From Patescibacteria group bacterium (GTDB taxonomy: Bacteria; Patescibacteriota; Minisyncoccia; Phycocordibacterales; UBA9973), in contig JAGWUB010000001.1 of the NCBI GenBank assembly GCA_028868715.1, positions 183,206 through 247,205 of the forward strand: a DNA stretch of 64,000 nucleotides. Direction: 5' to 3'. The notes below the pieces were generated by a model that worked only from the letters and a program-made list of their open reading frames with translations, was not told the DNA's origin and did no database searches. This document shows positions 28,546-59,434 of the stretch, one piece after another. Position 1 is the stretch's first letter, and the number at the start of each line of letters is the position of its first letter. The translations under genes and the position numbers were made by a program.

Positions 28546-28546
28546 T

Positions 28547-35980: not shown

Positions 35981-37060
35981 TCATTTTATGAACCTTATTT
36001 GAAGGGTTAGCTTGATAAAAAGAGAATCATTTTCCTGGTAGACTTTTCCGAATCCGTAACGAGTGGTGCTCGGCGTATCAAAGCGTGTGTTTTTGAACAG
36101 ATATGCCCTAAAAGCGTCCGCGTTGTATACGTGATAACAAACCATCTCCCCATCTTCGCGGACTATGATGTAACCGCCGTGCGCTCGCAAAAGACCGTCC
36201 CAGGCGGTATCGGGAACCATACCGAGAGCCACGTTGTGAAGAAGACTTTTTACTTTGAACTCATAGTCGGAGCGGTCGAGGTCGAAACTCAAAATGTTGG
36301 TTTCACCATTTCCGAGGTTTGCTATCAGTTCTGGCAAACCAGAACCTTTACCGAGATAAAAAGCCAGCAATAACTGCGCGACAATTTCTGGGAGAACCGT
36401 ATCAACGCGCCGAAGATTTCTGGTGAAAGTATCCGAGCTGATGCCATAGTATGAAAAACTGCCACCAGCGGCGACAATCGCGGAAAGTCTGTCTCTTACT
36501 TTCGAGCGGGTATCAATGGCGTTTATTTTCGCAATTTGTTCTTCGCTCAAACCTTCAATCTTGTAGACAAAGTTTGTAGCTGCGGAAGGATTCAGCAACG
36601 TAGACGCGGCACCCAGCATTGATTTGATACTGAAACCGACTTCTGGTTCGGTGCCAGTAACGTGGTCGTGAATCTTCAACGTGATGTCTTCTTTTCTGGC
36701 ATTGCCAGCATTCAATCGGGTAGCGTGGAAACGAGTCATCAAAGAATCCGCTACTGGAATCGAAAAAGTTGACTCGGCACCGTCTCTTATCGCTTGGAAA
36801 ACCTCTACAACTTTTGTTTTCAAATCGGAGCTATCAACGAGTGCTACTTCCGTACCAGCCTGGATGATTTTCACCTTGTTGTCTTCGACGAACTCATAAT
36901 CCATTCTGCCAGCCGCTTCCTCTCTGATGATTTTCAGCACAGGATAGAATATGTCCTGAATCTTCTGGAGATTTTCGTCAGCACCATTGAGCTGCTTTTC
37001 CGCAAGCAGTTTGATGAAAGTGTAGAACTCGCTCCATTCTCCTTTGTTTCCTTTTATCAT
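35981..37060 (-). CDS. Type II restriction endonuclease (partner of adjacent C5-MTase; HpaII-like family suspected)
   Basis: 359 aa. Its start overlaps the MTase stop by 4 bp (ATGA). It sits between a C5-MTase and vsr, and the family assignment comes from recall only. Confidence 0.45.
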   Translation of the reverse strand: MIKGNKGEWSEFYTFIKLLAEKQLNGADENLQKIQDIFYPVLKIIREEAAGRMDYEFVEDNKVKIIQAGTEVALVDSSDLKTKVVEVFQAIRDGAESTFSIPVADSLMTRFHATRLNAGNARKEDITLKIHDHVTGTEPEVGFSIKSMLGAASTLLNPSAATNFVYKIEGLSEEQIAKINAIDTRSKVRDRLSAIVAAGGSFSYYGISSDTFTRNLRRVDTVLPEIVAQLLLAFYLGKGSGLPELIANLGNGETNILSFDLDRSDYEFKVKSLLHNVALGMVPDTAWDGLLRAHGGYIIVREDGEMVCYHVYNADAFRAYLFKNTRFDTPSTTRYGFGKVYQENDSLFIKLTLQIRFIK

Positions 37061-37941
37061 AGTAGTTGAAGTGATTTTACTATCTGTGCGGCAGTCGCCT
37101 GAATGGCGGGAACCGCGACCGCGTTTCCAAGCTGTTTCATTGCCTGGACATCCGATACGGGAAAAACAAAACTGGCTGGGAAGCCCATCATCTTCCTGCC
37201 TTCTTTCGGAGAAAGTCTACGAACCTTTCCGTCCACCATATAGGCGTCCCAATTCCTTCTGTCTTTTATGTCCGAGCCTCTTCCTCCGACCCGCAGAGTG
37301 TATCCGATTGTTTTTTCAGCTTTCCCGCCGAATATGTCGGACATTGTTTTCGTCAACTTCACGGGCTTGGGGAACTCGAAGGGTGTGTTTTTATTCTTGA
37401 ATCCGACCATAAAAAGCCGTGCACGGTGCTGTGGCACACCGTGGTCGGAAGCTCGAACTATCTGGTAGTGAAATGAGTAATCCAAGTCTTCCTCAATGAT
37501 TCTTTTTATTGTTGCGAATGTTTTACCGTCATCGTGTTTGAAGAGATGACTCACGTTTTCCAGGAAAAAGGCATCGGGTTTTTTCTCTTTGATAATCCTT
37601 ACGATGTCGTGAAATAACGTACCCCTTGAATCGGCAAACCCTTTTTTGAATCCCGCATTGCTGAACGGTTGGCAAGGAAAACCAGCGGTTAGGATATGAA
37701 AATCGGGAATCTTCTTTGCATCCACTTTGGTTATGTCTCCTGCAAAGTTTCCGTTTTTGAAAATCTCTGGTTCCACTTTTTTGAAATTGGCTTCGTAAGT
37801 TTTCCGTGCGCGGTCATCCCATTCGCTCACGAAAACACACTGCCCGCCGAGGTTATGAAAAGCCAGATGAAAACCGCCTATTCCAGCGAATAGGTCTATG
37901 AAGGTGAACTTTGGTTTTGATTGTCTTTTTGTCATAGTCAT
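37057..37941 (-). CDS. dcm: DNA (cytosine-5)-methyltransferase
   Basis: Motif I 'FAGIGG', motif IV 'PCQPFS', 'ENV', and a late 'LGNAV' motif. Confidence 0.85.
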   Translation of the reverse strand: MTMTKRQSKPKFTFIDLFAGIGGFHLAFHNLGGQCVFVSEWDDRARKTYEANFKKVEPEIFKNGNFAGDITKVDAKKIPDFHILTAGFPCQPFSNAGFKKGFADSRGTLFHDIVRIIKEKKPDAFFLENVSHLFKHDDGKTFATIKRIIEEDLDYSFHYQIVRASDHGVPQHRARLFMVGFKNKNTPFEFPKPVKLTKTMSDIFGGKAEKTIGYTLRVGGRGSDIKDRRNWDAYMVDGKVRRLSPKEGRKMMGFPASFVFPVSDVQAMKQLGNAVAVPAIQATAAQIVKSLQLL

Positions 37942-41278: not shown

Positions 41279-43039
41279 ATGAACAGAGCATCTGAACAAT
41301 CACGAATAAAGTTCATCGCTTACAGCCGAAAAAGCACGGAGAGCGAAGACCGCCAGGTGCTCTCTTTGAATGACCAGAAGCGCGAACTTGAAGACGTACA
41401 GGCAAAAGAGAAGCTGCACGTTGTTGAGAAGTATCTCGGAGACAAGATAGGAGAAAGCCAGTCAGCCTATAAGCGCGGCAGACCTATTTTCGGGCACGTA
41501 ATGGAGCAAATAGAGGCTGGCAAAGCCAATGGTTTGCTTGTGTGGCATCCGAACCGCCTTGCACGCAATGCTTTTGATGGTGGTTGGATTATCACGGCAA
41601 TGGACGAAGGAAAGTTGCTGGAGATACGAACTCCGCAGAAGACCTACCATCACGACAATTCCGATGATAAGTTTTTCCTTCAACTTGAGTTCGGAATGGC
41701 AAAGAAGTCATCCGACGACAACAGCACTGCCGTAAAGCGCGGACTGAAAACAAAAGTCGGGATGGGTTGGTATCCGTCATACGCCCCACTCGGCTATCTC
41801 AACACCAAAGACAAAGACCTCAAAGGCAGCAATCATATTCAGATTGACCCAGAACGCTATCAAATTGTTCGTAAGATGTGGGACTTGATGCTCACGGGCA
41901 GATACACACCTCCAGAGATTTTGAGAATGGCAAACAAGCAGTGGAAGTTGAAGACGCGGACATCAAAGAAACGCCCTCTGCCTAAAGAAATGGCACGCAG
42001 TCATATCTATCGCATTTTCACCAACCCGTTTTACTGTGGATGGTTTGAATATGGCAAGCCAGTTCTTCAAGAAGACGGTACGCGACGTAAGCCGTGGTAC
42101 AAAGGCATTCACCAGCCGATGATAACGGTGGAAGAGTACGACCTCGTACAGAAACTTCTCAAAGAGAAAGGACGACCGCGCCCGAAGCGTCATCGTTTCG
42201 CTTTCACTGGTTTGATGCGCTGCGGCAACTGTGGTGCGATGATAACAGCGGAAGAGAAGATAAAGAAACAAAAGAACGGCAACGTGCATCATTACGTTTA
42301 CTATCGCTGCACGAAACGCAAGGATGAAAATTGTCCAGAGAAAACCGTCGAGCTGAAAGAATTGTCCAATCAGATTGATGATGTAATAAAAACAATTACC
42401 GTTTCGGAAGATTTCAAAGACTGGGGACTCCAGTATCTCCACGAAGTCCGCAAGGAAGAAGCAAAGACTCACGAAGCGGTGCAGAGAAGTAAGCAGAACG
42501 ATTCGCTGCGCATCACAAAGCAACTCGACAGCCTGGTGCTCAAGTACGCATCACCAGAGAATGCCAGTGGCGAGATTATCAGCGACATTGAGTTCCAGGG
42601 CTTGAAGAAGCGGTTGCTCGATGAAAAAGCAAGAATCACTAACGAGCTGCAAGAGCAGCACAAGGTGTTTGAGGACTGGCTGGATATGAGCGAGCGCACC
42701 TTCAATTTCGCACGCTACGCGGGTCTGTGGTTCGCCCAGGGCGATATGGAAACGAAGAGAGCCGTATTTGCCTGTCTCGGTTCGCACCTGGTTATTAGCA
42801 GCCAAAAACTCAACGTGCAGCTACGCAAGCCGTTCACTATGGTGTTCAAGAAGCTCGCGGAAGCGGAGAAGGAACTTGCCCAGGTTAGAACCTCTCTTGA
42901 ACCACAAAAAGCAGAAAACGCCCTCATAAAACAAAACAATCTTGCACTTGTCGTGCAAAATTGTTCAAACTGGCGGAGGCGGAGAGATTCGAACTCTCGA
43001 TACCTTTCGGTATGCCACCTTTCCAAGGTGGTGGAATAA
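41279..43039 (+). CDS. Large serine recombinase (integrase)
   Basis: N-terminal 'IAYSRKSTESEDRQVLSLNDQ', a recombinase domain, a Zn ribbon 'CGNCGAM...C' and a C-terminal coiled coil. The last ~23 codons read through the antisense of tRNA-Ser. Confidence 0.8.
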   Translation: MNRASEQSRIKFIAYSRKSTESEDRQVLSLNDQKRELEDVQAKEKLHVVEKYLGDKIGESQSAYKRGRPIFGHVMEQIEAGKANGLLVWHPNRLARNAFDGGWIITAMDEGKLLEIRTPQKTYHHDNSDDKFFLQLEFGMAKKSSDDNSTAVKRGLKTKVGMGWYPSYAPLGYLNTKDKDLKGSNHIQIDPERYQIVRKMWDLMLTGRYTPPEILRMANKQWKLKTRTSKKRPLPKEMARSHIYRIFTNPFYCGWFEYGKPVLQEDGTRRKPWYKGIHQPMITVEEYDLVQKLLKEKGRPRPKRHRFAFTGLMRCGNCGAMITAEEKIKKQKNGNVHHYVYYRCTKRKDENCPEKTVELKELSNQIDDVIKTITVSEDFKDWGLQYLHEVRKEEAKTHEAVQRSKQNDSLRITKQLDSLVLKYASPENASGEIISDIEFQGLKKRLLDEKARITNELQEQHKVFEDWLDMSERTFNFARYAGLWFAQGDMETKRAVFACLGSHLVISSQKLNVQLRKPFTMVFKKLAEAEKELAQVRTSLEPQKAENALIKQNNLALVVQNCSNWRRRRDSNSRYLSVCHLSKVVE

Positions 43040-43902: not shown

Positions 43903-46881
43903 ATGGCTATGGCTAAGGAGGATATATTTGAAGAGGACTATAAAAAGTTAAATAAAGCCCAAAAAGAAGCCGTAGACACCATAGATGGGCCGGTAATGGT
44001 GGTAGCCGGCCCTGGTACTGGTAAAACGCAAATATTGGCCCTACGCATAGCAAATATACTAAAAAAGACCGATTACGGCTCTAGTAGTATTCTATGTCTG
44101 ACATTTACCAATTCTGCCGCTTTGGCAATGCGAGAAAGGCTACGTAAATATATTGGCGCAGAGGTTTCAAAAGTTAAGGTGGCGACTTTTCATAGTTTCG
44201 GGTTGGAAATGTTAGAAAAATATTATGCAGTTATAGGATTAGACGTAGAGCCAAAATTAATGGATGAAAAAGACACCATAACTCTCTGTGACGAAATTTT
44301 GCATCAAAATGATTGGGAGCATATTCGTCCTCGAGCAGATGCTTCGAGGTATTTCCACGATTTAAAAAGTTTGATTTCATTACTAAAACGAGAACGTTTA
44401 ACCCCAGACAAGTTTGAGAATGAAATAAAAAAAGAAATAAAAAATATTGAACAGGATCCCGCAAATATTTCTTCTCGAGGAGAAAGTAAAGGTAAACTGA
44501 AAAAGGAAGTAGAGAAAAAAATAGAAGGACTTTATCGAACTCTGGAGGCCGTAAAATTCTATAGTTTATATGAAGATGCTAAGCAGGAAAGAAATTTGTT
44601 TGATTACGATGATATTTTAGAATCCTTAAATAAAATAGTAGAAGAGTCCGATGAAGCCAATAGTTATATCAAAGAAAACTTTCTGTATGTATTAATAGAC
44701 GAACACCAAGATAGTAGTGGAGTGCAAAATGAATTTCTTTCCAAGGTTTGGAAAGGCTCGGAGGCACCGAATATTTTTGTAGTTGGAGATGATCGGCAAC
44801 TCATTTATGGTTTCGGTGGAGCCTCCCTAGAGTATTTTGATAATTTCAAAAGCACTTTTGGTAAAGCAAAATTAATTACTCTCACTGAAAATTATCGCTC
44901 CACCCAAAATATTTTGGATTCATCTCATAATTTGCTTCAAAGTACGCTTACCAAAGGTAAGCTGACGAGTAACCATAAAGAAAACCACGCTCTTCGTTTA
45001 ATCGAAGCATATTATCCAAGAGATGAGATAATTTTTTCAGCGCTGGAGATAAAGGATAAAATTAAACGTGGTCAGGATCCAAATGACATGGCAATCTTAG
45101 TCCCCAAAAATCGACAAGTGCGAAGTGCGGTTACAATATTAAAAACTATGGGCGTGCCTGTGGCCGGTGGAGAGTCTACAAATTTCTTTGAATCCAAAGA
45201 AGCGATTTCACTACTGCGAGTTCTAAAAATTATTGCAAACCCAAATGATGGTGTGGCACTAGCCAATTCTTTTTTTGACCCACTTTCGGGAATTTCTCCA
45301 ATCAAAGCGCACGAATTTTTACGAGATCAAAAAATGCGAGAATTCTCATTACTAAATATCAAAGAAGAGAAAAATAATTTATTTGAGAATAGTAGTGAAA
45401 TAAATGTGTGGCTCGGGAAACTAAAATTATGGTTGGAATTTTCGTCAGAATCTCTATATACTTTTATCCAAAAAGTTGGCACTGAATTTTTACTTGATAC
45501 TGCCAATAATCACGATGATTTAATTGTGCGTATTGAAGTTGTTCGTACGATACTTCACCTAGTCTTAATGCAGACAAATAAAAATTTAAAGCCAAATTTA
45601 GTTGAATTCTTAAATTTTTTAGACAGAGTTGAACAATATGGTGAAAATATACCACTTGCCATTTTTGCTCCTAACGATGGTGTGAAAGTTCTTACTTTAC
45701 ATGGATCCAAGGGCCTAGAATTTGATTATGTATGGATAGCCCACATGGACGAACGCTCTTTTTCTAGCGGGAAGGTAGGAGGGTTTTCTTTACCTGAATC
45801 CGTAAAAGTAAAAGTCGAAGTTCGTGATGAAGAGGTTTTGAAACGGCAATTATATGTTGCCATTACTCGCGCCAAAAGGTTTTGCACCATCTCCTATGCG
45901 ATCAATTCGTATGCAGGTAGGGATCAACAGCTTGCAAATATTGTGGCGGATATTGGAGACAGTTTTGAAAAACAAAATGCCGATGAAACAGAAAAAATTA
46001 TTTTAAAGAACAACGAGCTTGCTTATGTGGAAAATAAGCAGGAAGTGAATAAACATACAAACTTAAGTGACGTCATAAAGTTAGTTAAACAAGATTATGA
46101 AAACCGTAAGGTTTCCGTGTCTCTCTTGAACAACTTTTTCGAGTGTCCTTGGAAGTGGTATTTTAGAAATTTACTTCAACTGCCGGAACCAAAATCTGAA
46201 AGCTTGGAATTTGGTAATATTGTGCACGGTTCTATCGATCAAGTTTTAAAACTTACCAAAAAACCAAGTGAACAGGATTTGCATAAGATAATTTTACAAC
46301 AAGTTCAAAAATCTGGTTATGGTAACAATCGGAAGCAAAAAGAATTACTTGATTTAGCTTTTAAAATTGTCTCCAAGTGGGCAAACGAAAGACTTCCTGA
46401 AATAAGTAAAAATAGAGAAAACGAGCAAAGTGTTTCGGTCATCGATGATAATTTTCCACACCTAAATATTTACGGGAAAATAGACTTAATAGAACACTTA
46501 GATGTACAGCATATTCGAGTGACGGATTTTAAAACAGGTGGAGTTAGGAAAAAGTCTGAAATAGAAAAAATTGATGAGGAAGGGAGATTGAGCAATTACA
46601 TGCGCCAGCTAGCAATGTATTCATATTTGATCAAACAAAGCCCAAAGTGGAAAGTGGAAGTTAGTGAATCTAGGCTTGAGTTTGTGGAGGCGAAAAATAA
46701 GGCAGAGATTTTCTACAATACTATAATAAAAAATGAACAAATAAATTTAGTTGTGAAAGATATCAAAGATTATGATCAATTAGTGAAAACAGGCGAGTGG
46801 ATAGATAGGCCCTGCAACTACAATTCCTATGGTAAAAACACCGAGTGCGAATATTGCAAACTAGCTGGAATCTATAAATAA
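43903..46881 (+). CDS. UvrD/PcrA-family helicase fused to C-terminal PD-(D/E)xK Cas4/AddB-like nuclease
   Basis: Walker A 'VAGPGTGKTQ', helicase motifs, and a C-terminal 'CPWKWYFRN' and 'C..C...C' cysteine cluster. Confidence 0.75.
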   Translation: MAMAKEDIFEEDYKKLNKAQKEAVDTIDGPVMVVAGPGTGKTQILALRIANILKKTDYGSSSILCLTFTNSAALAMRERLRKYIGAEVSKVKVATFHSFGLEMLEKYYAVIGLDVEPKLMDEKDTITLCDEILHQNDWEHIRPRADASRYFHDLKSLISLLKRERLTPDKFENEIKKEIKNIEQDPANISSRGESKGKLKKEVEKKIEGLYRTLEAVKFYSLYEDAKQERNLFDYDDILESLNKIVEESDEANSYIKENFLYVLIDEHQDSSGVQNEFLSKVWKGSEAPNIFVVGDDRQLIYGFGGASLEYFDNFKSTFGKAKLITLTENYRSTQNILDSSHNLLQSTLTKGKLTSNHKENHALRLIEAYYPRDEIIFSALEIKDKIKRGQDPNDMAILVPKNRQVRSAVTILKTMGVPVAGGESTNFFESKEAISLLRVLKIIANPNDGVALANSFFDPLSGISPIKAHEFLRDQKMREFSLLNIKEEKNNLFENSSEINVWLGKLKLWLEFSSESLYTFIQKVGTEFLLDTANNHDDLIVRIEVVRTILHLVLMQTNKNLKPNLVEFLNFLDRVEQYGENIPLAIFAPNDGVKVLTLHGSKGLEFDYVWIAHMDERSFSSGKVGGFSLPESVKVKVEVRDEEVLKRQLYVAITRAKRFCTISYAINSYAGRDQQLANIVADIGDSFEKQNADETEKIILKNNELAYVENKQEVNKHTNLSDVIKLVKQDYENRKVSVSLLNNFFECPWKWYFRNLLQLPEPKSESLEFGNIVHGSIDQVLKLTKKPSEQDLHKIILQQVQKSGYGNNRKQKELLDLAFKIVSKWANERLPEISKNRENEQSVSVIDDNFPHLNIYGKIDLIEHLDVQHIRVTDFKTGGVRKKSEIEKIDEEGRLSNYMRQLAMYSYLIKQSPKWKVEVSESRLEFVEAKNKAEIFYNTIIKNEQINLVVKDIKDYDQLVKTGEWIDRPCNYNSYGKNTECEYCKLAGIYK

Positions 46882-48288: not shown

Positions 48289-49419
48289 TTAACGGATAGT
48301 TGCTCCGAAAATTTTTGCTGTTTCAGTCTCCAATTTTTTATGGACTTCATCTATCTCTTTTCCAGTGAGTGTCTTTTCCAGTGAGCGATAGGTGATTCTA
48401 TAGGCATAACTTACTTTTCCCTCACCAAATTTTTCAACGTTCTCATATTTATCCAAGAGTTCTACTTCTTCTATAATTCCAGGTGCCAATTCTCGGACAA
48501 AATCAAAATAATCATTTGGAACAAAATCTGTTTTGACTACAAAAGAAATATCTCTAACTATTGGAGGGTATTTACTAACTTCTTTAAATTTATTTCCAAG
48601 CTTCAGTTGTTTTTTAACGCGATCATCTTCGGACCAAAGTAATCGAATGTCTGGTAGCTGCATGCTGGCAATAGCTAAGCGCTCGAGCCCAAAACCAAAA
48701 GCCCAACCATGATAGCCCTCTAGCCCTAAATTTGATAAGACGCTTTTACGTACCATTCCACAGCCCAACATTTCAACCCATCTACCATTAATTTCTGCCT
48801 CCATTTCAAAACTAGGATCTGTATAAGGGAAGTTGTGGTCATAAAAACGAAAATTTATATTGCCAAAAATACTTGTGGCTATTTCCGAAAGAGTATTTTT
48901 TAAGTCCTCGGGGGTAATTGTTTTTTTATCATCTGGAGCTATCAGCCATCCACCAAACTGATGGAAAACATTCATGTGGTGACGATCAATTTCGTCTTTA
49001 CGGTAAACCTTACCATAACAAATAGCTCCAAGGGTTTCTTTATTTTCAATTCTCTTTTTTATATCTGGATGATTTAAGTAATAGTACCAAAAGACTGTGT
49101 CATGAGTTCGTAAAACATTTCCTTCATCTACATAATAAGTGTCGGATTTACTACGAGCTGGGTGTCCTTCGGGCATATTAAACAAATCAAACATAATATT
49201 TACCGGAATAATTTCTGGAATTTTTATATCATCAAAATCTTTAAGGCTCGGAACCTTTTTTGCTTTCTTTACAATTTCTTCGAGTGGGCTCCCAGAGGTT
49301 CGGGACAAATCCGGCATGGATAAATAGCGTTTTAAGCGGAGTGAGTATATATCCTGTTTTGAATCCAAGTCCCTTTTTAATGATTCTTCTTCGGGAGAAG
49401 TTACAATATAGTTTGACAT
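48289..49419 (-). CDS. pheS: Phenylalanine--tRNA ligase alpha subunit
   Basis: 'FNMPEGHPARSKSDTYYV' motif and class II motifs 2/3 ('GWAFGFGLERL'). Confidence 0.75.
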   Translation of the reverse strand: MSNYIVTSPEEESLKRDLDSKQDIYSLRLKRYLSMPDLSRTSGSPLEEIVKKAKKVPSLKDFDDIKIPEIIPVNIMFDLFNMPEGHPARSKSDTYYVDEGNVLRTHDTVFWYYYLNHPDIKKRIENKETLGAICYGKVYRKDEIDRHHMNVFHQFGGWLIAPDDKKTITPEDLKNTLSEIATSIFGNINFRFYDHNFPYTDPSFEMEAEINGRWVEMLGCGMVRKSVLSNLGLEGYHGWAFGFGLERLAIASMQLPDIRLLWSEDDRVKKQLKLGNKFKEVSKYPPIVRDISFVVKTDFVPNDYFDFVRELAPGIIEEVELLDKYENVEKFGEGKVSYAYRITYRSLEKTLTGKEIDEVHKKLETETAKIFGATIR

Positions 49420-52068: not shown

Positions 52069-53319
52069 TTATTTTTTATTTTTTATTTCCTCCAAAAGTT
52101 TTTTGAGAAGGTCTTCTTTGGGCATCTGACCAAGTTGACCGTTGTCACGAGATTCTAGAGTTATTTTTCCGGCTTCTATTTCCTTATCACCAATTACTAT
52201 CCAGTAAGGCATTTTGTTATGTTTGGCATCGCGAACTTTGGTGCCGAGATTTTCATCTTTATCATCTAACTCGGCACGAATATTATTTTCTCGAAGCATT
52301 TCATAAACCTCACGGGCATATTCGTTGTGATTTGTGCGTACAGGGATGACTTTTACTTGCACCGGTGAGAGCCAAAGAGGGAAGGCGCCTTCATATTTTT
52401 CTATAAGGAAGGCCATACTACGTTCAATAGCCCCGATAGATGAACGGTGTACCACGAAAGCAAGATGCGTTTCACCATCTTCACCAATATAATTTAAATT
52501 AAATTTACCAGGCATACAAAAGTCATATTGAACAGTGAAGGCTGTGTCTTCTTTACCATTTGCATTTTTCATTTGTATATCTATCTTTGGTCCGTAAAAA
52601 GCTGCTTCATCTTTTGCTTCTTCAAATTTACTTCCTCTTTTCTGCATCAATTTTCGAAGTAGGTCTTCGCTTTTTTCCCAAGCTTCATCATTTTTAAAGT
52701 ATTTTTCAGTATTATTTCTGTCTCCGAGAGAAAGGCGATATCTATAATCAGTATCAAGTTTTAACCCAAAGACAGAAGTAGCATATTCGATGAGGTCAAG
52801 AGCTTTACCTATTTCTTCTACTGCTTGTTCTTCGGTGGCGCAGATTATATGTGCGTCTGACAGACAGAAAGTTCTCACTCTTTGTAGGCCCATAAGCTCA
52901 CCAGATTGCTCATAACGATAAAGTTGAGCAAGCTCGGCTATGCGCATAGGTAGTTCTCTGTAACTATGTGGCTTTGAAAGGTAAAGTTCAAAGTGGTGTG
53001 GACATGTCATAGGACGTAGCATAAACTCTTCGTCATCTATTACGATAGGCGCGTACATCGAATCTTTATAATGGGGATAGTGTCCAGACTTTTTGTAAAG
53101 ATCTAACTTGGCAATATCGGGAGTGCGAACGTGTAAGTATCCTCGTTTTATTTCTTCGTCTACAATAAAACGTTCAAGTTCTCGACGTACTGTCGCCCCC
53201 TTAGGTAACCATAATGGTAATCCTTTACCCACCACGTCACTAAAGGTGAATAGCTCCATTTCTCTACCTATCTTCTTATGATCTCGGCTTTTTTCGCCGT
53301 CTTGTTCATTTTTGTCCAT
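52069..53319 (-). CDS. thrS: Threonine--tRNA ligase, catalytic core plus anticodon-binding domain only (no N-terminal TGS/editing domains)
   Basis: 'RPMTCPHH', 'RVRTFCLSDAHIIC' and 'WLSPVQVKVIPV'. Only 416 aa. Confidence 0.7.
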   Translation of the reverse strand: MDKNEQDGEKSRDHKKIGREMELFTFSDVVGKGLPLWLPKGATVRRELERFIVDEEIKRGYLHVRTPDIAKLDLYKKSGHYPHYKDSMYAPIVIDDEEFMLRPMTCPHHFELYLSKPHSYRELPMRIAELAQLYRYEQSGELMGLQRVRTFCLSDAHIICATEEQAVEEIGKALDLIEYATSVFGLKLDTDYRYRLSLGDRNNTEKYFKNDEAWEKSEDLLRKLMQKRGSKFEEAKDEAAFYGPKIDIQMKNANGKEDTAFTVQYDFCMPGKFNLNYIGEDGETHLAFVVHRSSIGAIERSMAFLIEKYEGAFPLWLSPVQVKVIPVRTNHNEYAREVYEMLRENNIRAELDDKDENLGTKVRDAKHNKMPYWIVIGDKEIEAGKITLESRDNGQLGQMPKEDLLKKLLEEIKNKK

Positions 53320-53697: not shown

Positions 53698-54633
53698 ATG
53701 GCAAATAGGCACCTTTCAAGATCAATAGTACTTCAAACGCTTTTTGAGTGGGATTTCCTTCCTGCCGATAAAAAAGATAATAGTTCCGCTAATGGTGAGA
53801 TAATCGAAGCGCTAAAAAGAAACCTAAAAGAATTCGCTCCAGGACTGGAGGATGATAATTTTGTGCTTGCGCTCATAAGTGAAGTCTTAAAAAATCACGT
53901 AGTTATTGACGAGATTATAGAAAAGGCGGCGCCAGATTGGCCACTGGACAAGATTTCCATCGTTGATAGAAATATTTTGAGAATTGGCCTCTATGAGCTT
54001 CTTTTTGGCGACAGGACTCAAGTACCTCCGAAGGTGGCGATCAATGAAGCCATAGAATTAGCCAAAACCTTCGGCGGAGAAAACTCCAGTAAGTTCGTCA
54101 ATGGCGTACTCGGTGCGGTTTATAAAGAAATAGGCGAACCTGGTAAGGAGCAGAAAAGTAAAATTACTAAAAACAAAAAGTCAGATGAGCCAGTAGACAT
54201 TAGTAAATTAGACATCGAAAGATTGGGTGGGGCACTAGTTTACTCAAAAAATGGTAACGAAATACTTCTCGCTTTCGTGCATGATGTTTTCGGGTATTGG
54301 ACTTTGTCAAAAGGCAAGATCAAGGAAGGTGAGGACGTAGAAGATGGTACTAAGAGAGCAATTAAGAAAGAAATAGGCCTTGATATCGTAATAGAAGAGA
54401 AGTTGGGAGAAAATGAATATGTTGCGACACATCCGTCCAACGGCAAGAGTTTGAAAAAGGTAACTTATTTTTTGGGTAGGAGTGAATACAAGGAGCTAGA
54501 GCTTGAGAAGTCAGGTGGCCTAGATGGAGCGAGATGGTTTGCGCTTTCAGCTATTGCCGAGCTTCGCATTTATAGCGACATTATCCCAATTATTGAAAAG
54601 GCGATCAAAATTATTAGTTCAGAGAATAAATAA
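53698..54633 (+). CDS. nusB: NusB-NUDIX hydrolase fusion protein
   Basis: The N-terminal 150 aa are NusB ('VAINEAIELAKTFGGENSSKFVNGVLG'). The C-terminal 140 aa carry a Nudix box 'GKIKEGEDVEDGTKRAIKKEIGLDI'. Confidence 0.75.
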   Translation: MANRHLSRSIVLQTLFEWDFLPADKKDNSSANGEIIEALKRNLKEFAPGLEDDNFVLALISEVLKNHVVIDEIIEKAAPDWPLDKISIVDRNILRIGLYELLFGDRTQVPPKVAINEAIELAKTFGGENSSKFVNGVLGAVYKEIGEPGKEQKSKITKNKKSDEPVDISKLDIERLGGALVYSKNGNEILLAFVHDVFGYWTLSKGKIKEGEDVEDGTKRAIKKEIGLDIVIEEKLGENEYVATHPSNGKSLKKVTYFLGRSEYKELELEKSGGLDGARWFALSAIAELRIYSDIIPIIEKAIKIISSENK

Positions 54634-54637: not shown

Positions 54638-55333
54638 ATGATAAATTTTCCAGAATTTGAAGAAAAAACAAAAATATTTTTTAAAGATAAAAACTTGCTC
54701 AAGCAAGCTTTTACGCACCGTTCGTATATAAATGAAAATATTGGAACAGCACTTTCGCACAATGAGCGACTAGAATTTTTAGGAGACGCAGTGCTGGAGT
54801 TGATTGTGACAGATTTTCTTTATAAAAAATATCCAAAGTACGCCGAGGGCGAGTTGACCGCGGTACGTTCAGCTCTAGTAAATGCGATCATCATCTCTGA
54901 AGTAGCTAGCAAGGCCGGCATGAATGATTATTTACTATTGTCTCGCGGAGAGGCTAAAGATCATGGTAAGGCACGACAATATATCTTAGCCAATACTTAT
55001 GAAGCTTACATCGGAGCTCTATATCTAGATCAAGGCTATGATGTGGTGGCTAAATTTTTAAGTGAAAATCTTTTACCAAAAACAGATGAGATAGTAAACA
55101 AAAAACTTTGGCGCGATGCCAAAAGTTTAGTTCAGGAAAAGGCACAAGAATTCATCCAAACTACACCCCAATACAAAGTTTTAAGCGAATCAGGGCCCGA
55201 TCATGACAAGCACTTTACTGTAGGGATTTTCTTTGGATCTGAATTAATAGCTCAAGGTAGTGGTAAGTCCAAACAAGAAGGAGAGGTTGCAGCCGCTCAA
55301 GCAGCATTAAAAATAAAAAATTGGCTAGACTAA
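54638..55333 (+). CDS. rnc: Ribonuclease III
   Basis: 'ERLEFLGDAVLELIV' and a C-terminal dsRBD. The start was set at the Met at 54638. Confidence 0.85.
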   Translation: MINFPEFEEKTKIFFKDKNLLKQAFTHRSYINENIGTALSHNERLEFLGDAVLELIVTDFLYKKYPKYAEGELTAVRSALVNAIIISEVASKAGMNDYLLLSRGEAKDHGKARQYILANTYEAYIGALYLDQGYDVVAKFLSENLLPKTDEIVNKKLWRDAKSLVQEKAQEFIQTTPQYKVLSESGPDHDKHFTVGIFFGSELIAQGSGKSKQEGEVAAAQAALKIKNWLD

Positions 55334-55348: not shown

Positions 55349-57481
55349 ATGAGACTCAAAACTTTAGAAATAAATGGCTTTAAATCTTTTGCACAAAAAA
55401 GTGTTTTAGAGTTTGAGAGTCCAATTATTTGTATCGTTGGTCCGAACGGCTCTGGAAAATCAAACGTGGTTGAAGCCTTTCGTTATGTATTGGGAGAGCA
55501 GTCCATGAAATCCATGCGTGGAAAGTCTGGCCTAGACCTTATTTTCAAAGGGTCAAAAAACTTATCCAAAGGAACTCGTGCTGCCGTAACAGTTTATTTT
55601 AATAATGCTGATAAGGTTTTTAAATTCACCAATGATACAGGAGAAGAGGTAGATTTAAATTACGATATTATTAGCATCTCTAGACAAGTTTTTCCTGATG
55701 GTTTAAATAAATATATTTTAAATGGTTCCGATGTTCGATTGAAAGATATTCACAATCTTTTAGCCTCAGTCAACATTGGCTCAAGTGGACACCACATTAT
55801 TTCACAAGGTGAAGCGGACAGAATTTTAAATGCAAATCCAAAAGAGAGGCGGGCGATGGTGGAAGACGCGCTTGGTCTTAAAATTTATCAATACAAAATA
55901 AAAGAATCCGAGAGAAAACTAGAACGCACAAATGAAAACATGAAGGAAGTTTCCTTGCTTCGCCGAGAGAATGCGCCACACCTAAATTTTTTAAGGAAAC
56001 AAGTAGAGAAATTTGAAAAAGGTAAAGTAATGCAAGGTGAGTTGGCGGCACTTTATCGAGAATACCTAAAAAAAGAATCTATATATCTAGACGAGGAGAA
56101 AGATAATTTATCTAAAGAAAGACATCAAATTGAAGTTGAACTAAAGAGCGTTAACACTAAAATATCTGAAGCTGAAGACTCTAAAAAAGAAAGTATAAAA
56201 ATTGCTGAACTACGAACTGTGGAGCAAAAGTTGAATGAAATTCGTAGAATGAAGGGCGAGTTAGATAGAAAGCTTGGCAGAATTGAGGGTATATTGGAAT
56301 CAAAAGAAAATAAAGAGAAGCTTTCTGGACGTTGTCCTATGTGCGGTAGTGTCATCAAAGAAGTGGATGAAGAGCAAAAAGAAAAAATACACAATGAAGA
56401 AAAAGAATTAGAGGAGTTAAAAAATTCACAAACGAGGACTATCGCAGAAATAAAAACATTAGAAGGAGAAGAAAAAGAAGGCAACGAAAAAGCTGAAAGC
56501 TTGAAAAAGGAAATAAATAGAGAGATGGAGGCACTGCGGGATCAAGAGCGAGAAAAGTTTACCTATAAGGTTAAACAACAAGAGCTCACTTCTCACTTGG
56601 AGCTTTTGGCAGTTAAACAAGAAAACCTAGGACGAAGCATGGAGGCATTTCAAAACGAAATCAAAGAAGGTATCGCCCTTATCGGGCAAGAGATTTTGGG
56701 CTACAAGGATGTCTTAGTGGAAGGTAGAGAGGATAGAGCCATCCAGGAAGAGACTAGAAGAAAAATTGAGCGAATTAAAATAAAACTAGAAGACGTGGGC
56801 CTCTCCGGCGGAGCCGAAATAATGAAAGAGTTTAATGAAGTCTCGGAGAGGGATAATTTCTTGGCCAAGGAAATGGAAGATTTAACCAAGAGTATCGAAT
56901 CGCTCCAAAAACTTATCGCCGACTTGAAGGAAAAAATTGATATAGAGTTCCAAGAGGGTGTTAAAAAAATTAATGTAGAGTTTCAACAATTCTTCTCACT
57001 GATGTTTGGTGGGGGAACTGGATCTCTGTCTATCGTTACCCCTAAGCCAAGAAAAAGAAAAGCTGATGAAGAGTTGGATGAAGACGAAGAGATTGAAGAT
57101 TTTGAAGATGAAGATACAGTGCCGGAGCAGGGAATAGAGATAAATGTTTCTCTGCCACATAAAAAAGTTAAAGAACTGCAAGCACTCTCTGGTGGAGAGA
57201 GGTCGCTGACTTCTATTGCTATACTCTTTGCTATGTCACAGGTGAATCCGCCACCATTTCTAGTATTGGATGAGACGGATGCTGCGCTCGATGAATCAAA
57301 CTCTAGGAAATATGGTGATATGTTAGAGAAACTTTCTAAACATTCTCAGCTTATCGTGGTCACTCACAATCGTGAGACAATGTCTCGCGCTGGAGTACTA
57401 TATGGCATCACTGTCGGCGCCGACGGCGCCTCCAAGCTCCTCTCTGTCAAATTTGAAGAAGCCACCCAAATTGCGAAATAA
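55349..57481 (+). CDS. smc: SMC-family chromosome segregation ATPase, short form with CxxC zinc hook in place of hinge
   Basis: SMC head 'MRLKTLEINGFKSF...GPNGSGKSN...RYVLGEQSMKSMRG' and C-terminal 'LSGGERSLTSIAILFAMSQVNPPPFLVLDETDAALD'. 'CPMCG' lies at mid-coil. Length 710 aa. Confidence 0.8.
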   Translation: MRLKTLEINGFKSFAQKSVLEFESPIICIVGPNGSGKSNVVEAFRYVLGEQSMKSMRGKSGLDLIFKGSKNLSKGTRAAVTVYFNNADKVFKFTNDTGEEVDLNYDIISISRQVFPDGLNKYILNGSDVRLKDIHNLLASVNIGSSGHHIISQGEADRILNANPKERRAMVEDALGLKIYQYKIKESERKLERTNENMKEVSLLRRENAPHLNFLRKQVEKFEKGKVMQGELAALYREYLKKESIYLDEEKDNLSKERHQIEVELKSVNTKISEAEDSKKESIKIAELRTVEQKLNEIRRMKGELDRKLGRIEGILESKENKEKLSGRCPMCGSVIKEVDEEQKEKIHNEEKELEELKNSQTRTIAEIKTLEGEEKEGNEKAESLKKEINREMEALRDQEREKFTYKVKQQELTSHLELLAVKQENLGRSMEAFQNEIKEGIALIGQEILGYKDVLVEGREDRAIQEETRRKIERIKIKLEDVGLSGGAEIMKEFNEVSERDNFLAKEMEDLTKSIESLQKLIADLKEKIDIEFQEGVKKINVEFQQFFSLMFGGGTGSLSIVTPKPRKRKADEELDEDEEIEDFEDEDTVPEQGIEINVSLPHKKVKELQALSGGERSLTSIAILFAMSQVNPPPFLVLDETDAALDESNSRKYGDMLEKLSKHSQLIVVTHNRETMSRAGVLYGITVGADGASKLLSVKFEEATQIAK

Positions 57482-57484: not shown

Positions 57485-59434
57485 TTACACTAAAACGTAA
57501 TCAATTGTTTTTCGTTCTAAGTCAACACCACGGACTTTTATTTTAACGCGATCACCGAGACGGTATCGCTTTTTTCGTTTTTGCCCGACGAGCTCCAATT
57601 TCTTTTCATTAAAAACATAAAAATCATCTTTCATATCGCGCACGCGTACTAGTCCTTCACATTTGGTTTCCACTTCTTCCACATACAACCCCCATTCGGT
57701 GATGCCGGCAATTACGCCCTCAAATTTTTCTCCCGCACGCTTGCTCATGTATTCCACTTGTTTATATTTAATCGAAGATCGTTCGGCATCGGTCGCGCGC
57801 TTCTCTTGTTCGGATGCGATTCTAGCCATCTTTTCATAAGCATAAATATTTTCTTTTTTGATTTTCTTATGAGATAGAAAATCCTGCAGCAGTCGGTGAA
57901 CGATGATGTCTGGATAACGCCTGATCGGGGAAGTAAAGTGAGTATAATAAGGGAAGGCGAGCCCATAGTGACCAATATTTTTTGTGGAGTAAATGGCTTT
58001 GGCCATAGATTTTATTACCGCGCGATTAACCGCATCTGCCTCTGGTTTTCCAGCCAAACTCTCCAGTAACCTGTTTATTTCATGGGTTGGGATGACTCCA
58101 TCTACGAGCGATATTTTATATCCTAAATTTCTCAAAAAGAATGCCAAGTCGGTCATTTTTTCTTTAGTTGGTAAATCATGCACCCGGTAGATAGATATCT
58201 CTTTGTTTTTGGAGGTCTTAGTATCTCCAGAGATTAATTTTGCCACTTTTTTATTAGCTAAGAGCATAAACTCTTCTATCAGTCTATTTGAGTTACCACG
58301 TTCTTTTTTTATTATATCAATGGGAACTCCATACATGTTGAGTACAAATTTAACTTCTTCCTGCTCCAATGATATGGCACCTTCTTTAAATCTTTCCTTG
58401 GTAAGTTTTTTTGCTAGGTCATTTAAAATAGATAATTCTCTATGGAGTGGCGCCTTGGAATTTTTAATGGATTCTTCTGCTTCTTCATAGGTAAATCTTT
58501 TTTGAGAATGTATCACGGTGCGTCCAAACCATTCACTTTTTACCTTCGCATTTTTGTCTATAATAAAAACAGCACTCATGGTCAGACGATCCTTGTTTGG
58601 CACTAAACTGCACAAATCATTGGAAAGAATTTCTGGGAGCATGGGTATGGTTCTATCTACTAGATAAACCGAGGTCCCGCGTTCACTAGCTTCTTTATCC
58701 AAAACACTACCGACTTTTACATAATATGAAACATCTGCAATATGAATACCGATTTCATACTCTACGTCTTTTCCATTTTTTATTTCCTTAAACGATAGGG
58801 CATCATCAAAATCCTTGGCGTCACTTGGATCAATGGTAAAGGTGAGAGTTTTTCTAAAATCACGACGGTCGACATAGTCTGTTTCCTTGATACCTCGCAC
58901 TTTTATTTCTCTTGCTTCAGCCTCCACTTTTTTTGGAAGTTCTGAATCAAAACCTTTTTCCATGGCGATGGATAACATCTCGGCATTATTGTCTCCAGGG
59001 TTACCTAAAATTTTAACCACTTCTCCGGTCGGAGCTTTGCGAGCATCTTTCCATGAAATTATTTGCACAAAAACTTTTTGCCCAGTCTTGGCACCATTTA
59101 AATTTTCCTTTGGTATTAAAATATCCGTATACATTTTTGTATCGTCTGGCTTTAAAAAAATCATGCTGTCCTGCTGTTCCAGCACTCCAGCAAAGCTCAT
59201 CTTTGCCCGCGAGATTATTTTTGAAACTTCGGCAGTCTGACGCCCGCGCCCCTTTGGGTGGTAAATGATTTCTACTGTATCTCCATGCAGGGCAGTGTTT
59301 AAATGCTTAGAATCAATTTCTGGGTCCTTTAGTTTACTTTTATCCTCACCAATAGCCACATAGCCCGTACCCTTGGAGGATATGGATATAATGCCTTGAG
59401 CCCTATTGGTTTTTTTGGGCGGTTGGTGTTTCAC
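57485..59434 (-). CDS. rnr: Ribonuclease R / RNase II family exoribonuclease
   Basis: Cold-shock/OB domains, an RNB catalytic domain and a C-terminal S1 domain. Confidence 0.85.
   Translation of the reverse strand: MKHQPPKKTNRAQGIISISSKGTGYVAIGEDKSKLKDPEIDSKHLNTALHGDTVEIIYHPKGRGRQTAEVSKIISRAKMSFAGVLEQQDSMIFLKPDDTKMYTDILIPKENLNGAKTGQKVFVQIISWKDARKAPTGEVVKILGNPGDNNAEMLSIAMEKGFDSELPKKVEAEAREIKVRGIKETDYVDRRDFRKTLTFTIDPSDAKDFDDALSFKEIKNGKDVEYEIGIHIADVSYYVKVGSVLDKEASERGTSVYLVDRTIPMLPEILSNDLCSLVPNKDRLTMSAVFIIDKNAKVKSEWFGRTVIHSQKRFTYEEAEESIKNSKAPLHRELSILNDLAKKLTKERFKEGAISLEQEEVKFVLNMYGVPIDIIKKERGNSNRLIEEFMLLANKKVAKLISGDTKTSKNKEISIYRVHDLPTKEKMTDLAFFLRNLGYKISLVDGVIPTHEINRLLESLAGKPEADAVNRAVIKSMAKAIYSTKNIGHYGLAFPYYTHFTSPIRRYPDIIVHRLLQDFLSHKKIKKENIYAYEKMARIASEQEKRATDAERSSIKYKQVEYMSKRAGEKFEGVIAGITEWGLYVEEVETKCEGLVRVRDMKDDFYVFNEKKLELVGQKRKKRYRLGDRVKIKVRGVDLERKTIDYVLV

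What the first reader, a model, noticed from the sequence alone, without database searches (positions are those of the whole stretch)
55349..57481. SMC with a Rad50-like CxxC zinc hook replacing the hinge domain
Head motifs are unmistakably SMC (GFKSF, GPNGSGKSN, LSGGERSLTSIA, VLDETDAALD). The protein is only 710 aa. Its coiled coil is interrupted at the centre by 'GRCPMCGS' (~56330..56350) instead of a ~150-aa hinge. This is a hybrid SMC-head/Rad50-hook architecture in the canonical rnc-smc position. It implies zinc-mediated dimerisation of a minimal condensin.
Basis: partly seen in the sequence, partly recalled or inferred. Interest (0 to 1): 0.6.

Follow-up and report, generated by a model that had tools for sequence, protein, structure and literature searches.

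The report
Half-length bacterial SMC with zinc hook
This gene is the chromosome-organising SMC ATPase of an ultra-small (CPR/Patescibacteria) bacterium, with half-length arms and, in place of the usual hinge, a conserved Rad50-like CPxCG "zinc hook", so nature has repeated a hinge-to-hook swap that was previously only engineered in the laboratory.

Summary
ORF 55349..57481(+) encodes a 710-aa protein with intact SMC ATPase motifs. It has only three cysteines. Two of them form CPMC (aa 329-332, nt 56333-56344) at the turn of an antiparallel coiled coil, and there is no hinge.

The head is SMC-type: SMC model 499 bits against Rad50 62, RecN 47, SbcC 36 and LmuB 99. The gene sits in the conserved nusB-rnc-smc-rnr-rpsP locus.

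[quoted passage not shown] The motif G[KR]CPxCGxE[IL] is invariant in 120 of 120 close homologues from independent assemblies.

- This belongs to a large Patescibacteria family of 690-780-aa "mini-SMCs" that all lack the canonical hinge.
- Most members carry a Cys-free two-helix cap at the apex. Several clades, including this one, carry a CxxC hook instead.
- The nearest non-hook orthologue is 69% identical and occupies the same locus. Hook clades do not group together, so the apex module has been exchanged more than once.

Zinc binding, dimerisation and ScpAB partners remain untested. I found no paper describing this. I rate it a new variant of a known kind, of moderate to high interest to SMC specialists.

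The parts
55349..57481 (+). smc gene: 710-aa mini-SMC with a zinc-hook apex (stop codon 57479-57481)
   Evidence: ORF. SMC_N 1.4e-55. TIGR02168 499.5 bits. B. subtilis Smc head 5xg3 3.8e-75. A 100% identical NCBI entry is named 'AAA family ATPase [Patescibacteria group bacterium]'.
55349..55879 (+). N-terminal half of the ABC ATPase head (aa 1-177). It includes Walker A GPNGSGKS (aa 31-38, nt 55439-55462), R57 and the Q-loop Q153.
   Evidence: Alignment to the B. subtilis Smc head. Invariant columns. Beta-strand/helix pattern in the AF2 model.
55880..56323 (+). Ascending coiled-coil arm (aa 178-325; helices 178-276 and 283-325 with a short break)
   Evidence: AF2 secondary structure, pLDDT mostly 75-95. 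The head-proximal 'neck' (aa 172-223) is nearly invariant in the family.
56324..56374 (+). Apex loop (aa 326-342) carrying the hook motif SGRCPMCGSVI. CPMC is aa 329-332, nt 56333-56344.
   Evidence: conservation. (only significant PDB hits are the Pfu Rad50 hooks 1L8D and 6ZFF). (PF04423 is the Pfam family matched by most hook segments, 17 of 27). (the loop lies between the two arm helices; pLDDT is low in the monomer model).
56375..56899 (+). Descending coiled-coil arm (aa 343-517; helices 343-454, 463-483 and 488 onwards, with a joint-like break at 455-487)
   Evidence: AF2 model. The top Foldseek hit is 5XEI, an Smc head with coiled coil and joint.
56900..57478 (+). C-terminal half of the head (aa 518-710). 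It includes the signature LSGGE (aa 613-617, nt 57185-57199), Walker B FLVLDE with catalytic E642 (aa 637-642, nt 57257-57274), the D-loop DAALD and the H-loop H673.
   Evidence: (invariant columns).
57044..57118 (+). Acidic, predicted-disordered insertion in the C-terminal head (aa 566-590). B. subtilis Smc lacks it and its length varies in the family.
   Evidence: This stretch is left unaligned, falls in a gapped variable block, and has pLDDT 53-56.
54638..55333 (+). rnc (RNase III), immediately upstream and probably co-transcribed
   Evidence: Pfam Ribonucleas_3_3, Ribonuclease_3 and dsrm. The same adjacency occurs in relatives.
53698..54633 (+). nusB-NUDIX fusion gene, part of the conserved rpmF-nusB-rnc-smc block
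   Evidence: Also present in L082 and L089.
57485..59434 (-). rnr (RNase R), convergent downstream neighbour. It marks the end of the smc transcription unit.
   Evidence: Pfam RNB, CSD2 and S1. Conserved nearby in relatives.

Best explanation
This is the organism's orthologous chromosomal SMC, the motor of bacterial condensin, in a minimised form.

Shown:
- The ABC ATPase head is complete and SMC-type.
- The antiparallel coiled-coil arms are roughly 155-185 aa long, about half the 344 aa of B. subtilis Smc. That gives an estimated ~22-25 nm.
- There is no hinge domain.
- A strictly conserved G[KR]CPxCGxE[IL] motif lies exactly at the coiled-coil turn.

Inferred:
- Two protomers each contribute their two cysteines to bind one Zn2+ tetrahedrally, as in the Rad50 zinc hook. 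This would form the constitutive apex dimer that the hinge normally provides.
- The ATP-driven head engagement and disengagement cycle then works as in Smc-ScpAB to entrap and translocate on DNA.
- Because the protein has only one other cysteine, four-cysteine coordination requires two chains.

The engineered B. subtilis Smc carrying the P. furiosus Rad50 hook supports normal growth (PMC5344682). This architecture is therefore known to be compatible with condensin function.

The protein belongs to a Patescibacteria-wide mini-SMC family. In this family the apex module is either a Cys-free two-helix cap (the majority) or a CxxC hook (several clades).
For: SMC identity:
- TIGR02168 SMC_prok_B scores 499.5 bits. 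Rad50 models score <=62, RecN 47, ASRP 44 and SbcC 36.
- The best PDB sequence hits are Smc heads (5xg3, 3.8e-75). The Foldseek top 25 are Smc, condensin or cohesin heads, and Rad50 first appears at rank 26.
- All catalytic motifs are invariant, including Walker B E642.
- Orthology by synteny: rpmF-nusB-rnc-smc-...-rnr-rpsP-KH-trmD is conserved in hook-type and non-hook relatives.

No hinge.

Hook:
- CPxCG is invariant in 120 of 120 close homologues.
- The middle region alone hits only 1L8D (E 1.7e-4).
- A profile of the hook segments hits 1L8D (6.7e-5) and 6ZFF (5.6e-4) as the top two.
- PF04423 Rad50_zn_hook is the Pfam family matched by most hook segments, 17 of 27.
- Control: mutating both Cys to Ser lowers the 1L8D score from 24.8 to 16.2 bits, so the flanks also contribute.
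- Control: the non-hook orthologue gives no such hit.
- Only three cysteines are present in the protein.

It is not an assembly artefact. More than 160 distinct hook-type sequences were seen from NCBI, JGI, ENA and Logan assemblies.

Arm length is near the minor natural mode of 163 aa and is about 344 - 2x91 aa, following the periodicity reported in PMC5344682.
Against: - No experiment or multimer model shows zinc binding or dimerisation.
- The AF2 monomer model has pLDDT below 50 at the hook.
- The Pfam Rad50_zn_hook matches are all below the gathering threshold (best E 0.0021), and the window's own segment did not match.
- The similarity to 1L8D is modest (about 25 bits) and lies in compositionally biased coiled coil.
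- ScpA and ScpB were not found in the 64-kb window or in the +/-6-10-kb flanks of relatives. The rest of the genome could not be searched, so a kleisin-containing holocomplex is assumed rather than shown.
- The protein falls below the TIGR02168 cut-off of 567.
Confidence: 0.75

Rival explanations
1. It is the SMC orthologue, but the CxxC is not an intermolecular zinc hook. It might be a structural turn, a redox-sensitive disulfide, or a site that binds a partner protein or metal in another way. Dimerisation would then rely on arm-arm and head contacts only.
For: Zinc binding is untested. The AF2 monomer is unconfident at the apex. Pfam PF04423 is not reached at its threshold. Close orthologues manage without any cysteine at the apex (P0121 has 0 Cys), so the apex chemistry is evidently not fixed.
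Against: The motif matches the Rad50 hook at most positions: G-K/R-C-P-x-C-G-x-E-L/I against Pfu GKCPVCGREL. The only significant PDB hits are Rad50 hooks. The motif is invariant across more than 120 sequences while the flanks drift. A bare CxxC at the tip of a coiled coil is the architecture described for the hooks of Rad50, SbcC and RloC and proposed for ClsN and LmuB (PMC2610378, PMC9389158, PMC10586767).
Confidence: 0.12
2. It is a kleisin-independent SMC-like protein that bridges or compacts DNA by itself or with unknown partners, as proposed for RecN or archaeal ClsN. It would not be the motor of a Smc-ScpAB loop-extruding ring.
For: No ScpA or ScpB was detected in the window or in any fetched flank. 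The arms are short. Archaeal ClsN and other ASRPs are SMC-related proteins with a zinc-hook motif, and ClsN helps set up chromosome compartments in Sulfolobus (PMC9389158).
Against: scpAB is normally not linked to smc, so absence from about 10% of a genome says little. The head-proximal neck, where the kleisin N-domain binds in canonical Smc (PDB 3ZGX), is the most conserved part of the arm and aligns well to B. subtilis Smc. The head is far closer to SMC than to RecN or ASRP.
Confidence: 0.12
3. It is a Rad50/SbcC-type repair ATPase, or a Lamassu LmuB-type defence ATPase (~650 aa, short coils, CPxCG hook), mis-read as SMC.
For: Size, arm length and the CPxCG motif resemble the published description of LmuB (PMC10586767). 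The PADLOC LmuB model scores 98.7 bits over the full length.
Against: The SMC model scores 499.5 bits against 98.7 for LmuB, <=62 for Rad50 and 36 for SbcC. The Walker B glutamate is intact, whereas LmuB usually has Gln (PMC10586767). There is no Mre11/SbcD, LmuA or LmuC neighbour. The gene lies in a conserved housekeeping block between rnc and rnr/rpsP in every relative examined. A non-hook orthologue that is 69% identical occupies the same locus.
Confidence: 0.02
4. It is an assembly or annotation artefact, or a decaying gene: an internal deletion of a normal smc in one MAG.
For: The window comes from a metagenome-assembled genome. NCBI names the protein only 'AAA family ATPase'.
Against: Hundreds of independent assemblies give the same 690-780-aa architecture. 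The reading frame is intact, all catalytic residues are invariant, and the AF2 model is confident overall at 87.6.
Confidence: 0.01

Closest known systems
Bacterial Smc of the Smc-ScpAB condensin (B. subtilis Smc; TIGR02168; PDB 5XG3, 3ZGX, 5XEI)
   Same: The head sequence and fold, all ATPase motifs including R57 and E642, the conserved neck and joint, the antiparallel coiled coil, and the position of the gene directly downstream of rnc.
   Different: There is no ~150-170-aa hinge (PF06470). The arms are about half as long (~155-185 aa against 344). The protein is 710 aa against 1186 and scores below the TIGR02168 cut-off. It has an acidic loop inserted in the C-terminal head. ScpAB partners have not been located.
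Rad50/SbcC zinc hook (P. furiosus Rad50, PDB 1L8D and 6ZFF; Pfam PF04423)
   Same: A CxxC at the tip of an antiparallel coiled coil, with motif-level identity G-K/R-C-P-x-C-G-x-E-L/I. These are the only significant PDB matches of the apex.
   Different: The head is not Rad50-type (<=62 bits against cut-offs of 700-1087). There is no Mre11/SbcD partner nearby. PF04423 is matched only below its threshold.
Engineered B. subtilis Smc(Zh) chimera, with the hinge replaced by the Pfu Rad50 zinc hook (Burmann et al. 2017, PMC5344682), and the reciprocal Rad50-MukB/BsSMC hinge chimeras (Tatebe et al. 2020, PMC6969161)
   Same: The same domain logic: an SMC head and arms plus a Rad50-type hook. The chimera supported normal growth, and shortened arms were functional only in certain length windows.
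   Different: This protein is natural, conserved across many lineages, and combines the hook with arms shorter than any functional B. subtilis construct described in the passages I read (functional windows 253-267, 321-373 and 407-435 aa).
Archaea-specific SMC-related proteins (ASRP: ClsN/coalescin, Sph1/2; PMC9389158; NF045487)
   Same: SMC-superfamily proteins with a zinc-hook motif, and in the case of ClsN a role in chromosome organisation.
   Different: ASRPs form a separate clade distinct from SMC. Here the ASRP model scores 43.7 bits against 499.5 for SMC. This protein is bacterial and sits in the smc locus.
Lamassu LmuB (PMC10586767)
   Same: About 650-700 aa, coiled coils of about 20 nm, and a CPxCG hook in many members.
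   Different: LmuB is Rad50-like, usually has a Walker B E-to-Q substitution, and is encoded with LmuA and LmuC effectors. None of these apply here.
'Hinge-less' SMC variants of marine Actinobacteria (PMC12153180, 2025)
   Same: SMC-clade heads with coiled coils and no hinge, found in metagenomes.
   Different: The authors state explicitly that those lack the CXXC motif. This protein is from a different phylum. I did not test relatedness to that family.

Membership tests
Bacterial SMC (Smc of Smc-ScpAB) | Split ABC ATPase head with Walker A, Q-loop, signature LSGG, Walker B DE, D-loop and H-loop | tested here: met
   GPNGSGKS 31-38, Q153, LSGGE 613-617, FLVLDE 637-642, DAALD and H673 are all invariant in alignments of 25 to 150 sequences.
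Bacterial SMC (Smc of Smc-ScpAB) | Head closer to SMC than to any other SMC-superfamily branch | tested here: met
   TIGR02168 499.5 bits and TIGR02169 293, against Rad50 <=62, RecN 47, ASRP 44, RecF 40 and SbcC 36. Top PDB hits are Smc heads.
Bacterial SMC (Smc of Smc-ScpAB) | Curated whole-protein cut-off of the equivalog model TIGR02168 (567.35 bits) | tested here: not met
   499.5 bits. The hinge and half of the arm positions in the model have no counterpart in this protein.
Bacterial SMC (Smc of Smc-ScpAB) | Central hinge dimerisation domain (Pfam SMC_hinge PF06470) | tested here: not met
   No PF06470 hit at E<=1. No hinge structure is hit by the middle 280 aa at E<=10. The AF2 model has only a 17-residue loop between the arm helices.
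Bacterial SMC (Smc of Smc-ScpAB) | Long intramolecular antiparallel coiled coil linking head and dimerisation module | tested here: met
   AF2 helices 178-325 and 343-553 fold back on each other. The length is about half the canonical value.
Bacterial SMC (Smc of Smc-ScpAB) | Kleisin ScpA and KITE ScpB partners encoded in the genome | tested here: inconclusive
   Not found among the 50 window ORFs scanned with Pfam, by a motif search, by phmmer with recalled B. subtilis ScpA/ScpB sequences against 2836 ORFs of the window and all fetched loci (the ScpA probe detected a ScpA in a non-CPR locus; the ScpB probe had no confirmed positive), or in the flanks of relatives.
Bacterial SMC (Smc of Smc-ScpAB) | Orthologous genomic position (smc directly downstream of rnc, as in B. 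subtilis rnc-smc-ftsY; the B. subtilis order is from my own knowledge) | tested here: met
   rnc ends 15 nt upstream. The nusB-rnc-smc ... rnr-rpsP-KH-trmD order is shared with hook-type and non-hook relatives.
Rad50/SbcC | CxxC zinc-hook motif at the apex of the coiled coil | tested here: met
   CPMC 329-332 lies in the apex loop. It is conserved. 1L8D and 6ZFF are the top PDB hits.
Rad50/SbcC | Zn2+ coordinated by four cysteines from two chains | not testable with these tools
   Only monomer prediction was available. Indirect support: the protein has just three cysteines and no conserved histidine nearby.
Rad50/SbcC | Rad50/SbcC-type head (curated models NF041034, NF003034, TIGR00618) | tested here: not met
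   61.8, 56.4 and 35.7 bits against cut-offs of 1000, 700 and 478.5.
Rad50/SbcC | Linked Mre11/SbcD nuclease gene | tested here: not met
   The neighbours are nusB, rnc, rnr and rpsP. No nuclease partner is seen in the flanks of relatives.
Pfam Rad50_zn_hook (PF04423) | Score above the Pfam gathering threshold | tested here: inconclusive
   The window's own segment gives no hit at E<=10. Of 27 family hook segments, 17 match at E<=10, with a best E of 0.0021. No other Pfam family is matched by as many segments, but every match is sub-threshold.
Lamassu LmuB | Best match to LmuB models, a Walker B E-to-Q substitution, and an operon with LmuA/LmuC | tested here: not met
   LmuB 98.7 bits against SMC 499.5. 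E642 is invariant. The neighbours are housekeeping genes.
RecN | TIGR00634 equivalog (cut-off 407.85) | tested here: not met
   47 bits, covering the C-terminal head only.
Archaeal ASRP / ClsN | NF045487 equivalog (cut-off 300) | tested here: not met
   43.7 bits.

The most novel reading that the evidence does not exclude
In Patescibacteria the SMC apex is an evolutionarily exchangeable cassette. A whole radiation runs its chromosomes with half-length SMCs that have no hinge. Within that radiation a Rad50-like zinc hook has replaced, or been replaced by, a Cys-free two-helix cap at least twice. This would be a natural replicate of the hinge-swap experiments. It would imply that neither the hinge fold nor its DNA-binding surfaces are needed for the core SMC mechanism, and that an arm of about 160 aa is a functional length class. 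The most radical version is that these mini-SMCs work without ScpAB.
Probability: 0.45. Interest if true: 0.75.

Novelty: new variant of a known kind. Interest (0 to 1): 0.62.

Why it matters
How much of an SMC complex is needed for DNA entrapment and loop extrusion is an open question, and so is whether the hinge does more than hold two arms together.

Laboratory chimeras showed that a Rad50 hook can substitute for the B. subtilis hinge (PMC5344682). The reverse swap also works in yeast Rad50 (PMC6969161). This locus shows that evolution has made the same substitution in a true smc orthologue, together with arms about two superhelical periods shorter than usual, and has kept it across many lineages.

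It offers three things:
- A compact 710-aa SMC that should be tractable for structural and single-molecule work.
- Matched natural pairs, hook against helical cap at 69% identity, for testing what the apex contributes.
- A reason why annotation pipelines call these proteins only 'AAA family ATPase'.

Tried and rejected
- Pfam on the window's own hook segment (70 aa and 280 aa) gave no Rad50_zn_hook hit. Only scanning the family members did.
- ScpA/ScpB search, all negative or uninformative: Pfam on 50 window ORFs; a motif search; phmmer with recalled B. subtilis ScpA/ScpB sequences against all fetched loci; and Pfam on unannotated ORFs next to smc in relatives. In one search the ScpA probe found a ScpA in an Anaerolineaceae locus, but the one marginal CPR hit turned out to be EF-Ts.
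- Walking beyond the window with the look-up of encoding contigs on edge genes returned only short Logan contigs or nothing.
- Literature searches for a natural SMC with a zinc hook, or for SMC or ScpB in Patescibacteria, found no description.
- Considered and rejected: SbcC/Rad50, RecN, ASRP, LmuB, JetC and an assembly artefact (see the rival explanations and the membership test).
Full report
**1. The observation**

The ORF 55349..57481 (+) is real and encodes 710 aa. The quoted head motifs are all present: GFKSF at aa 10-14, GPNGSGKSN at 31-39, LSGGERSLTSIA at 613-624 and VLDETDAALD at 639-648. 'GRCPMCGS' is aa 327-334 (nt 56327-56350), and the CPMC is nt 56333-56344.

The protein has only three cysteines (28, 329, 332). 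Pfam gives one SMC_N match spanning residues 3-695 (1.4e-55) and no SMC_hinge.

An AlphaFold2 model built on a 150-sequence alignment has mean pLDDT 87.6 and pTM 0.67. It shows a split head, an ascending arm (helices 178-276 and 283-325), a 17-residue loop (326-342) holding the CxxC, and a descending arm (343-454, 463-483, 488-553). A ~150-aa hinge has nowhere to fit. The middle 280 residues hit no hinge structure in the PDB even at E<=10.

**2. What kind of ATPase it is**

- NCBIfam scores: bacterial SMC equivalog TIGR02168 499.5 bits (below its 567 cut-off, because the hinge and half of the arms are missing), archaeal-type SMC 293, Rad50 models <=62, RecN 47, ASRP 44 and SbcC 36.
- The best PDB sequence hits are B. 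subtilis, Geobacillus, Thermotoga and Pyrococcus Smc heads, down to 3.8e-75.
- The Foldseek top 25 are Smc, condensin or cohesin heads. The best is 5XEI (Smc head plus coiled coil and joint), and Rad50 first appears at rank 26.
- PADLOC gives LmuB 98.7 bits and JetC about 30.
- All catalytic residues, including the Walker B glutamate E642 and R57, are invariant across the family.
- The gene follows rnc by 15 nt and lies in the block gyrB / thrS-like / rpmF / nusB-NUDIX / rnc / smc / rnr / rpsP / KH / trmD. The same block surrounds a Vogelbacteria hook-type homologue, a Nomurabacteria-like hook homologue, the closest non-hook homologue and a more distant short SMC.

This is therefore the orthologous chromosomal smc. 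It is not an SbcC, RecN, LmuB or Wadjet gene.

**3. Whether the CxxC is a hook**

(a) Conservation. C329, P330, C332 and G333 are invariant in 25 sequences at 72-85% identity, although the surrounding coiled coil varies. All 120 closest database clusters have the motif. The consensus is V-K-[ILV]-S-G-[RK]-C-P-x-C-G-x-E-[IL].

(b) Similarity.
[quoted passage not shown] It aligns SGRCPMCGS with KGKCPVCGR.
- A profile of 27 hook segments returns 1L8D (6.7e-5) and 6ZFF (5.6e-4), both Pfu Rad50 hooks, as the two best hits.
- When the 27 segments are scanned individually, Pfam Rad50_zn_hook is the family matched by most of them (17 of 27, best E 0.0021). Every match is below the gathering threshold, and the window's own segment did not match.

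(c) Controls. Changing both Cys to Ser lowers the 1L8D score from 24.8 to 16.2 bits, so the flanks contribute as well as the cysteines. The equivalent region of the closest non-hook orthologue gives no Rad50 hit.

(d) Logic. With only one other cysteine in the protein and no conserved histidine nearby, a four-ligand zinc site needs two chains.

I conclude that an intermolecular Rad50-type zinc hook is the best-supported reading. Metal binding and dimerisation remain inferences.

**4.

An exhaustive HMMER search of 1.84 billion cluster representatives gave 10,232 hits at E<=1e-30. The best 150 are all 445-782 aa, and most are 700-780. None has a hinge Pfam domain among those that carry annotations.

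Only 6 of these 150 representatives have a central CxxC. The others have a Cys-free apex that is 35-55 aa longer. P0121 is 69% identical to the window protein, has 750 aa and no cysteine, and occupies the same locus. AF2 predicts two short helices for its apex (337-355 and 360-378), forming a 63-residue cap between the same two arm helices.

The arms are homologous up to RKLGRIEG on one side and ELKNSQ on the other. The difference therefore looks like a cassette: a 17-residue hook loop against a 63-residue helical cap.

A second search seeded with the Vogelbacteria hook protein found 39 further hook-type clusters with a different consensus (C-x-[YA]-C-G-Q). All but one are 689-726 aa (the exception is 771), while the 79 non-hook relatives are 732-782 aa.

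Source names place the family in Patescibacteria: Nomurabacteria, Vogelbacteria, Taylorbacteria, Paceibacterota, Parcubacteria, Uhrbacteria, Azambacteria, Minisyncoccia and MAGs labelled Saccharibacteria.

**5. Evolution of the apex**

I built an NJ tree with my own script from 576 non-apex columns of 293 sequences, with 100 bootstraps.
- The window's hook clade groups with the non-hook P0121 in 100% of replicates.
- All hooks are never monophyletic (0 of 100).
- In the base tree the hooks form about five clades interspersed with cap-type sequences.

NJ on identity-based distances is crude and the deep nodes are unreliable. Even so, the CPxCG[SNK]E hooks and the CxxCGQ hooks differ in motif, in spacing from the conserved LGRxEG motif and in tree position. 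At least two independent hook/cap exchanges are likely. Because cap-type sequences dominate and surround the hook clades, the hook is more probably derived. This is inference.

**6. Likely mechanism**

Shown: a complete, conserved SMC ATPase; a conserved neck and joint; arms of about 155 aa (N-terminal) and 175-185 aa (C-terminal), depending on how the boundaries are mapped from the B. subtilis alignment; and a hook motif at the tip.

Inferred: two chains join through one Zn2+ at the tip. The arms align into a rod roughly half the length of the ~47-49 nm B. subtilis arm (PMC5344682, PMC5526789). ATP-driven head engagement opens and closes the compartment as in Smc-ScpAB.

Precedent: B. subtilis Smc with the Pfu Rad50 hook in place of the hinge grows normally. 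Arm length is constrained to windows spaced about 91-99 aa apart. Natural prokaryotic Smc arms show modes at 238, 341 and 515 aa and minor ones at 163 and 423 aa (PMC5344682). The arm here, with a mean of roughly 165-170 aa, lies near the 163-aa minor mode and near 344 - 2x91. That fits the periodicity rule, but my estimate is approximate.

The idea that short arms and a minimal apex are an adaptation to very small cells and streamlined genomes is speculation.

**7. What remains open**

ScpA and ScpB were not found in the window or in any fetched flank. scpAB is not normally linked to smc, and I could not read the rest of the genome, so this is uninformative. No multimer prediction or metal test was possible.

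**8. Comparison with what is known**

Zinc hooks are described or proposed in Rad50/SbcC, in RloC (PMC2610378), in archaeal ASRP/ClsN (PMC9389158) and in Lamassu LmuB (PMC10586767). All of these are SMC-like proteins outside the SMC clade. 'Hinge-less' SMCs were reported in 2025 from marine Actinobacteria, explicitly without CXXC (PMC12153180). Hinge/hook interchangeability has been shown only with engineered chimeras (PMC5344682, PMC6969161).

Eight full-text searches found no report of a natural bacterial SMC orthologue with a zinc hook, or of the Patescibacteria mini-SMC family. The library is not complete, so prior description cannot be excluded.

**9. Verdict**

This is a new variant of a known kind. 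Interest is about 0.6. It would not overturn the SMC field, but it is a natural, widespread and compact test case for a question SMC specialists actively work on.

Noticed in passing
window 32000-43100 (ORF 32952..35546, - strand): A GC-rich island (GC 0.46 against about 0.37 elsewhere) carries a second coiled-coil ABC ATPase of 864 aa with its own central CxxC ('DDRCIYCQQKL', aa 389-392). It matches the PADLOC candidate defence family PDC-S06 over its full length (428 bits) and Pfam AAA_13. It resembles the zinc-hook ATPase of RloC. Its C-I-Y-C-x-Q motif is similar to the 'CxYCGQ' hooks of the second SMC hook clade.
   Followed up: partly
window 35570..37941 (- strand) and 41279..43039 (+): The same island holds a Vsr mismatch endonuclease, an HpaII-type restriction enzyme, a C5 cytosine methylase and a large serine recombinase. 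It looks like a mobile restriction-modification and defence island.
   Followed up: partly
window 53698..54633 (+): NusB is fused to a NUDIX hydrolase domain. The same fusion sits upstream of rnc-smc in Vogelbacteria and Nomurabacteria-like relatives (L082, L089).
   Followed up: partly
window 48289..49419 (-): A single-chain PheRS-like gene of 376 aa combines the class II core (tRNA-synt_2d) with an FDX-ACB anticodon-binding domain. From my own knowledge this architecture is typical of mitochondrial PheRS. It is also present in relatives (L083, L089).
   Followed up: no
window 52069..53319 (-): A class II aaRS (core plus HGTP anticodon domain, probably ThrRS) is only 416 aa. It lacks the N-terminal tRNA_SAD/editing region that the 584-585-aa orthologues of related genomes retain (L083, L089).
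   Followed up: no
window 57044..57118 (aa 566-590 of the SMC): A highly acidic, predicted-disordered loop is inserted in the C-terminal head. It is absent from B. subtilis Smc and its length is very variable across the family.
   Followed up: partly
window ~16500-29600: A type IV pilus / pseudopilin cluster: a PilO-like protein, six N-methylation-motif pilins and a prepilin peptidase.
   Followed up: partly
window 43903..46881 (+): A 992-aa UvrD-type helicase is fused to a PD-(D/E)XK nuclease (AddA/AdnB-like). It is conserved at the same position relative to smc in the P0121 genome (L083).
   Followed up: no
loci L027, L029, L038, L040, L053, L071 (genome contigs): Intermediate-length SMC homologues (810-987 aa) occur in MAGs labelled Gammaproteobacteria, Clostridium, Muribaculaceae and Bacilli. 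They are shorter than canonical SMC and have no central CxxC. I did not examine their apex architecture.
   Followed up: no
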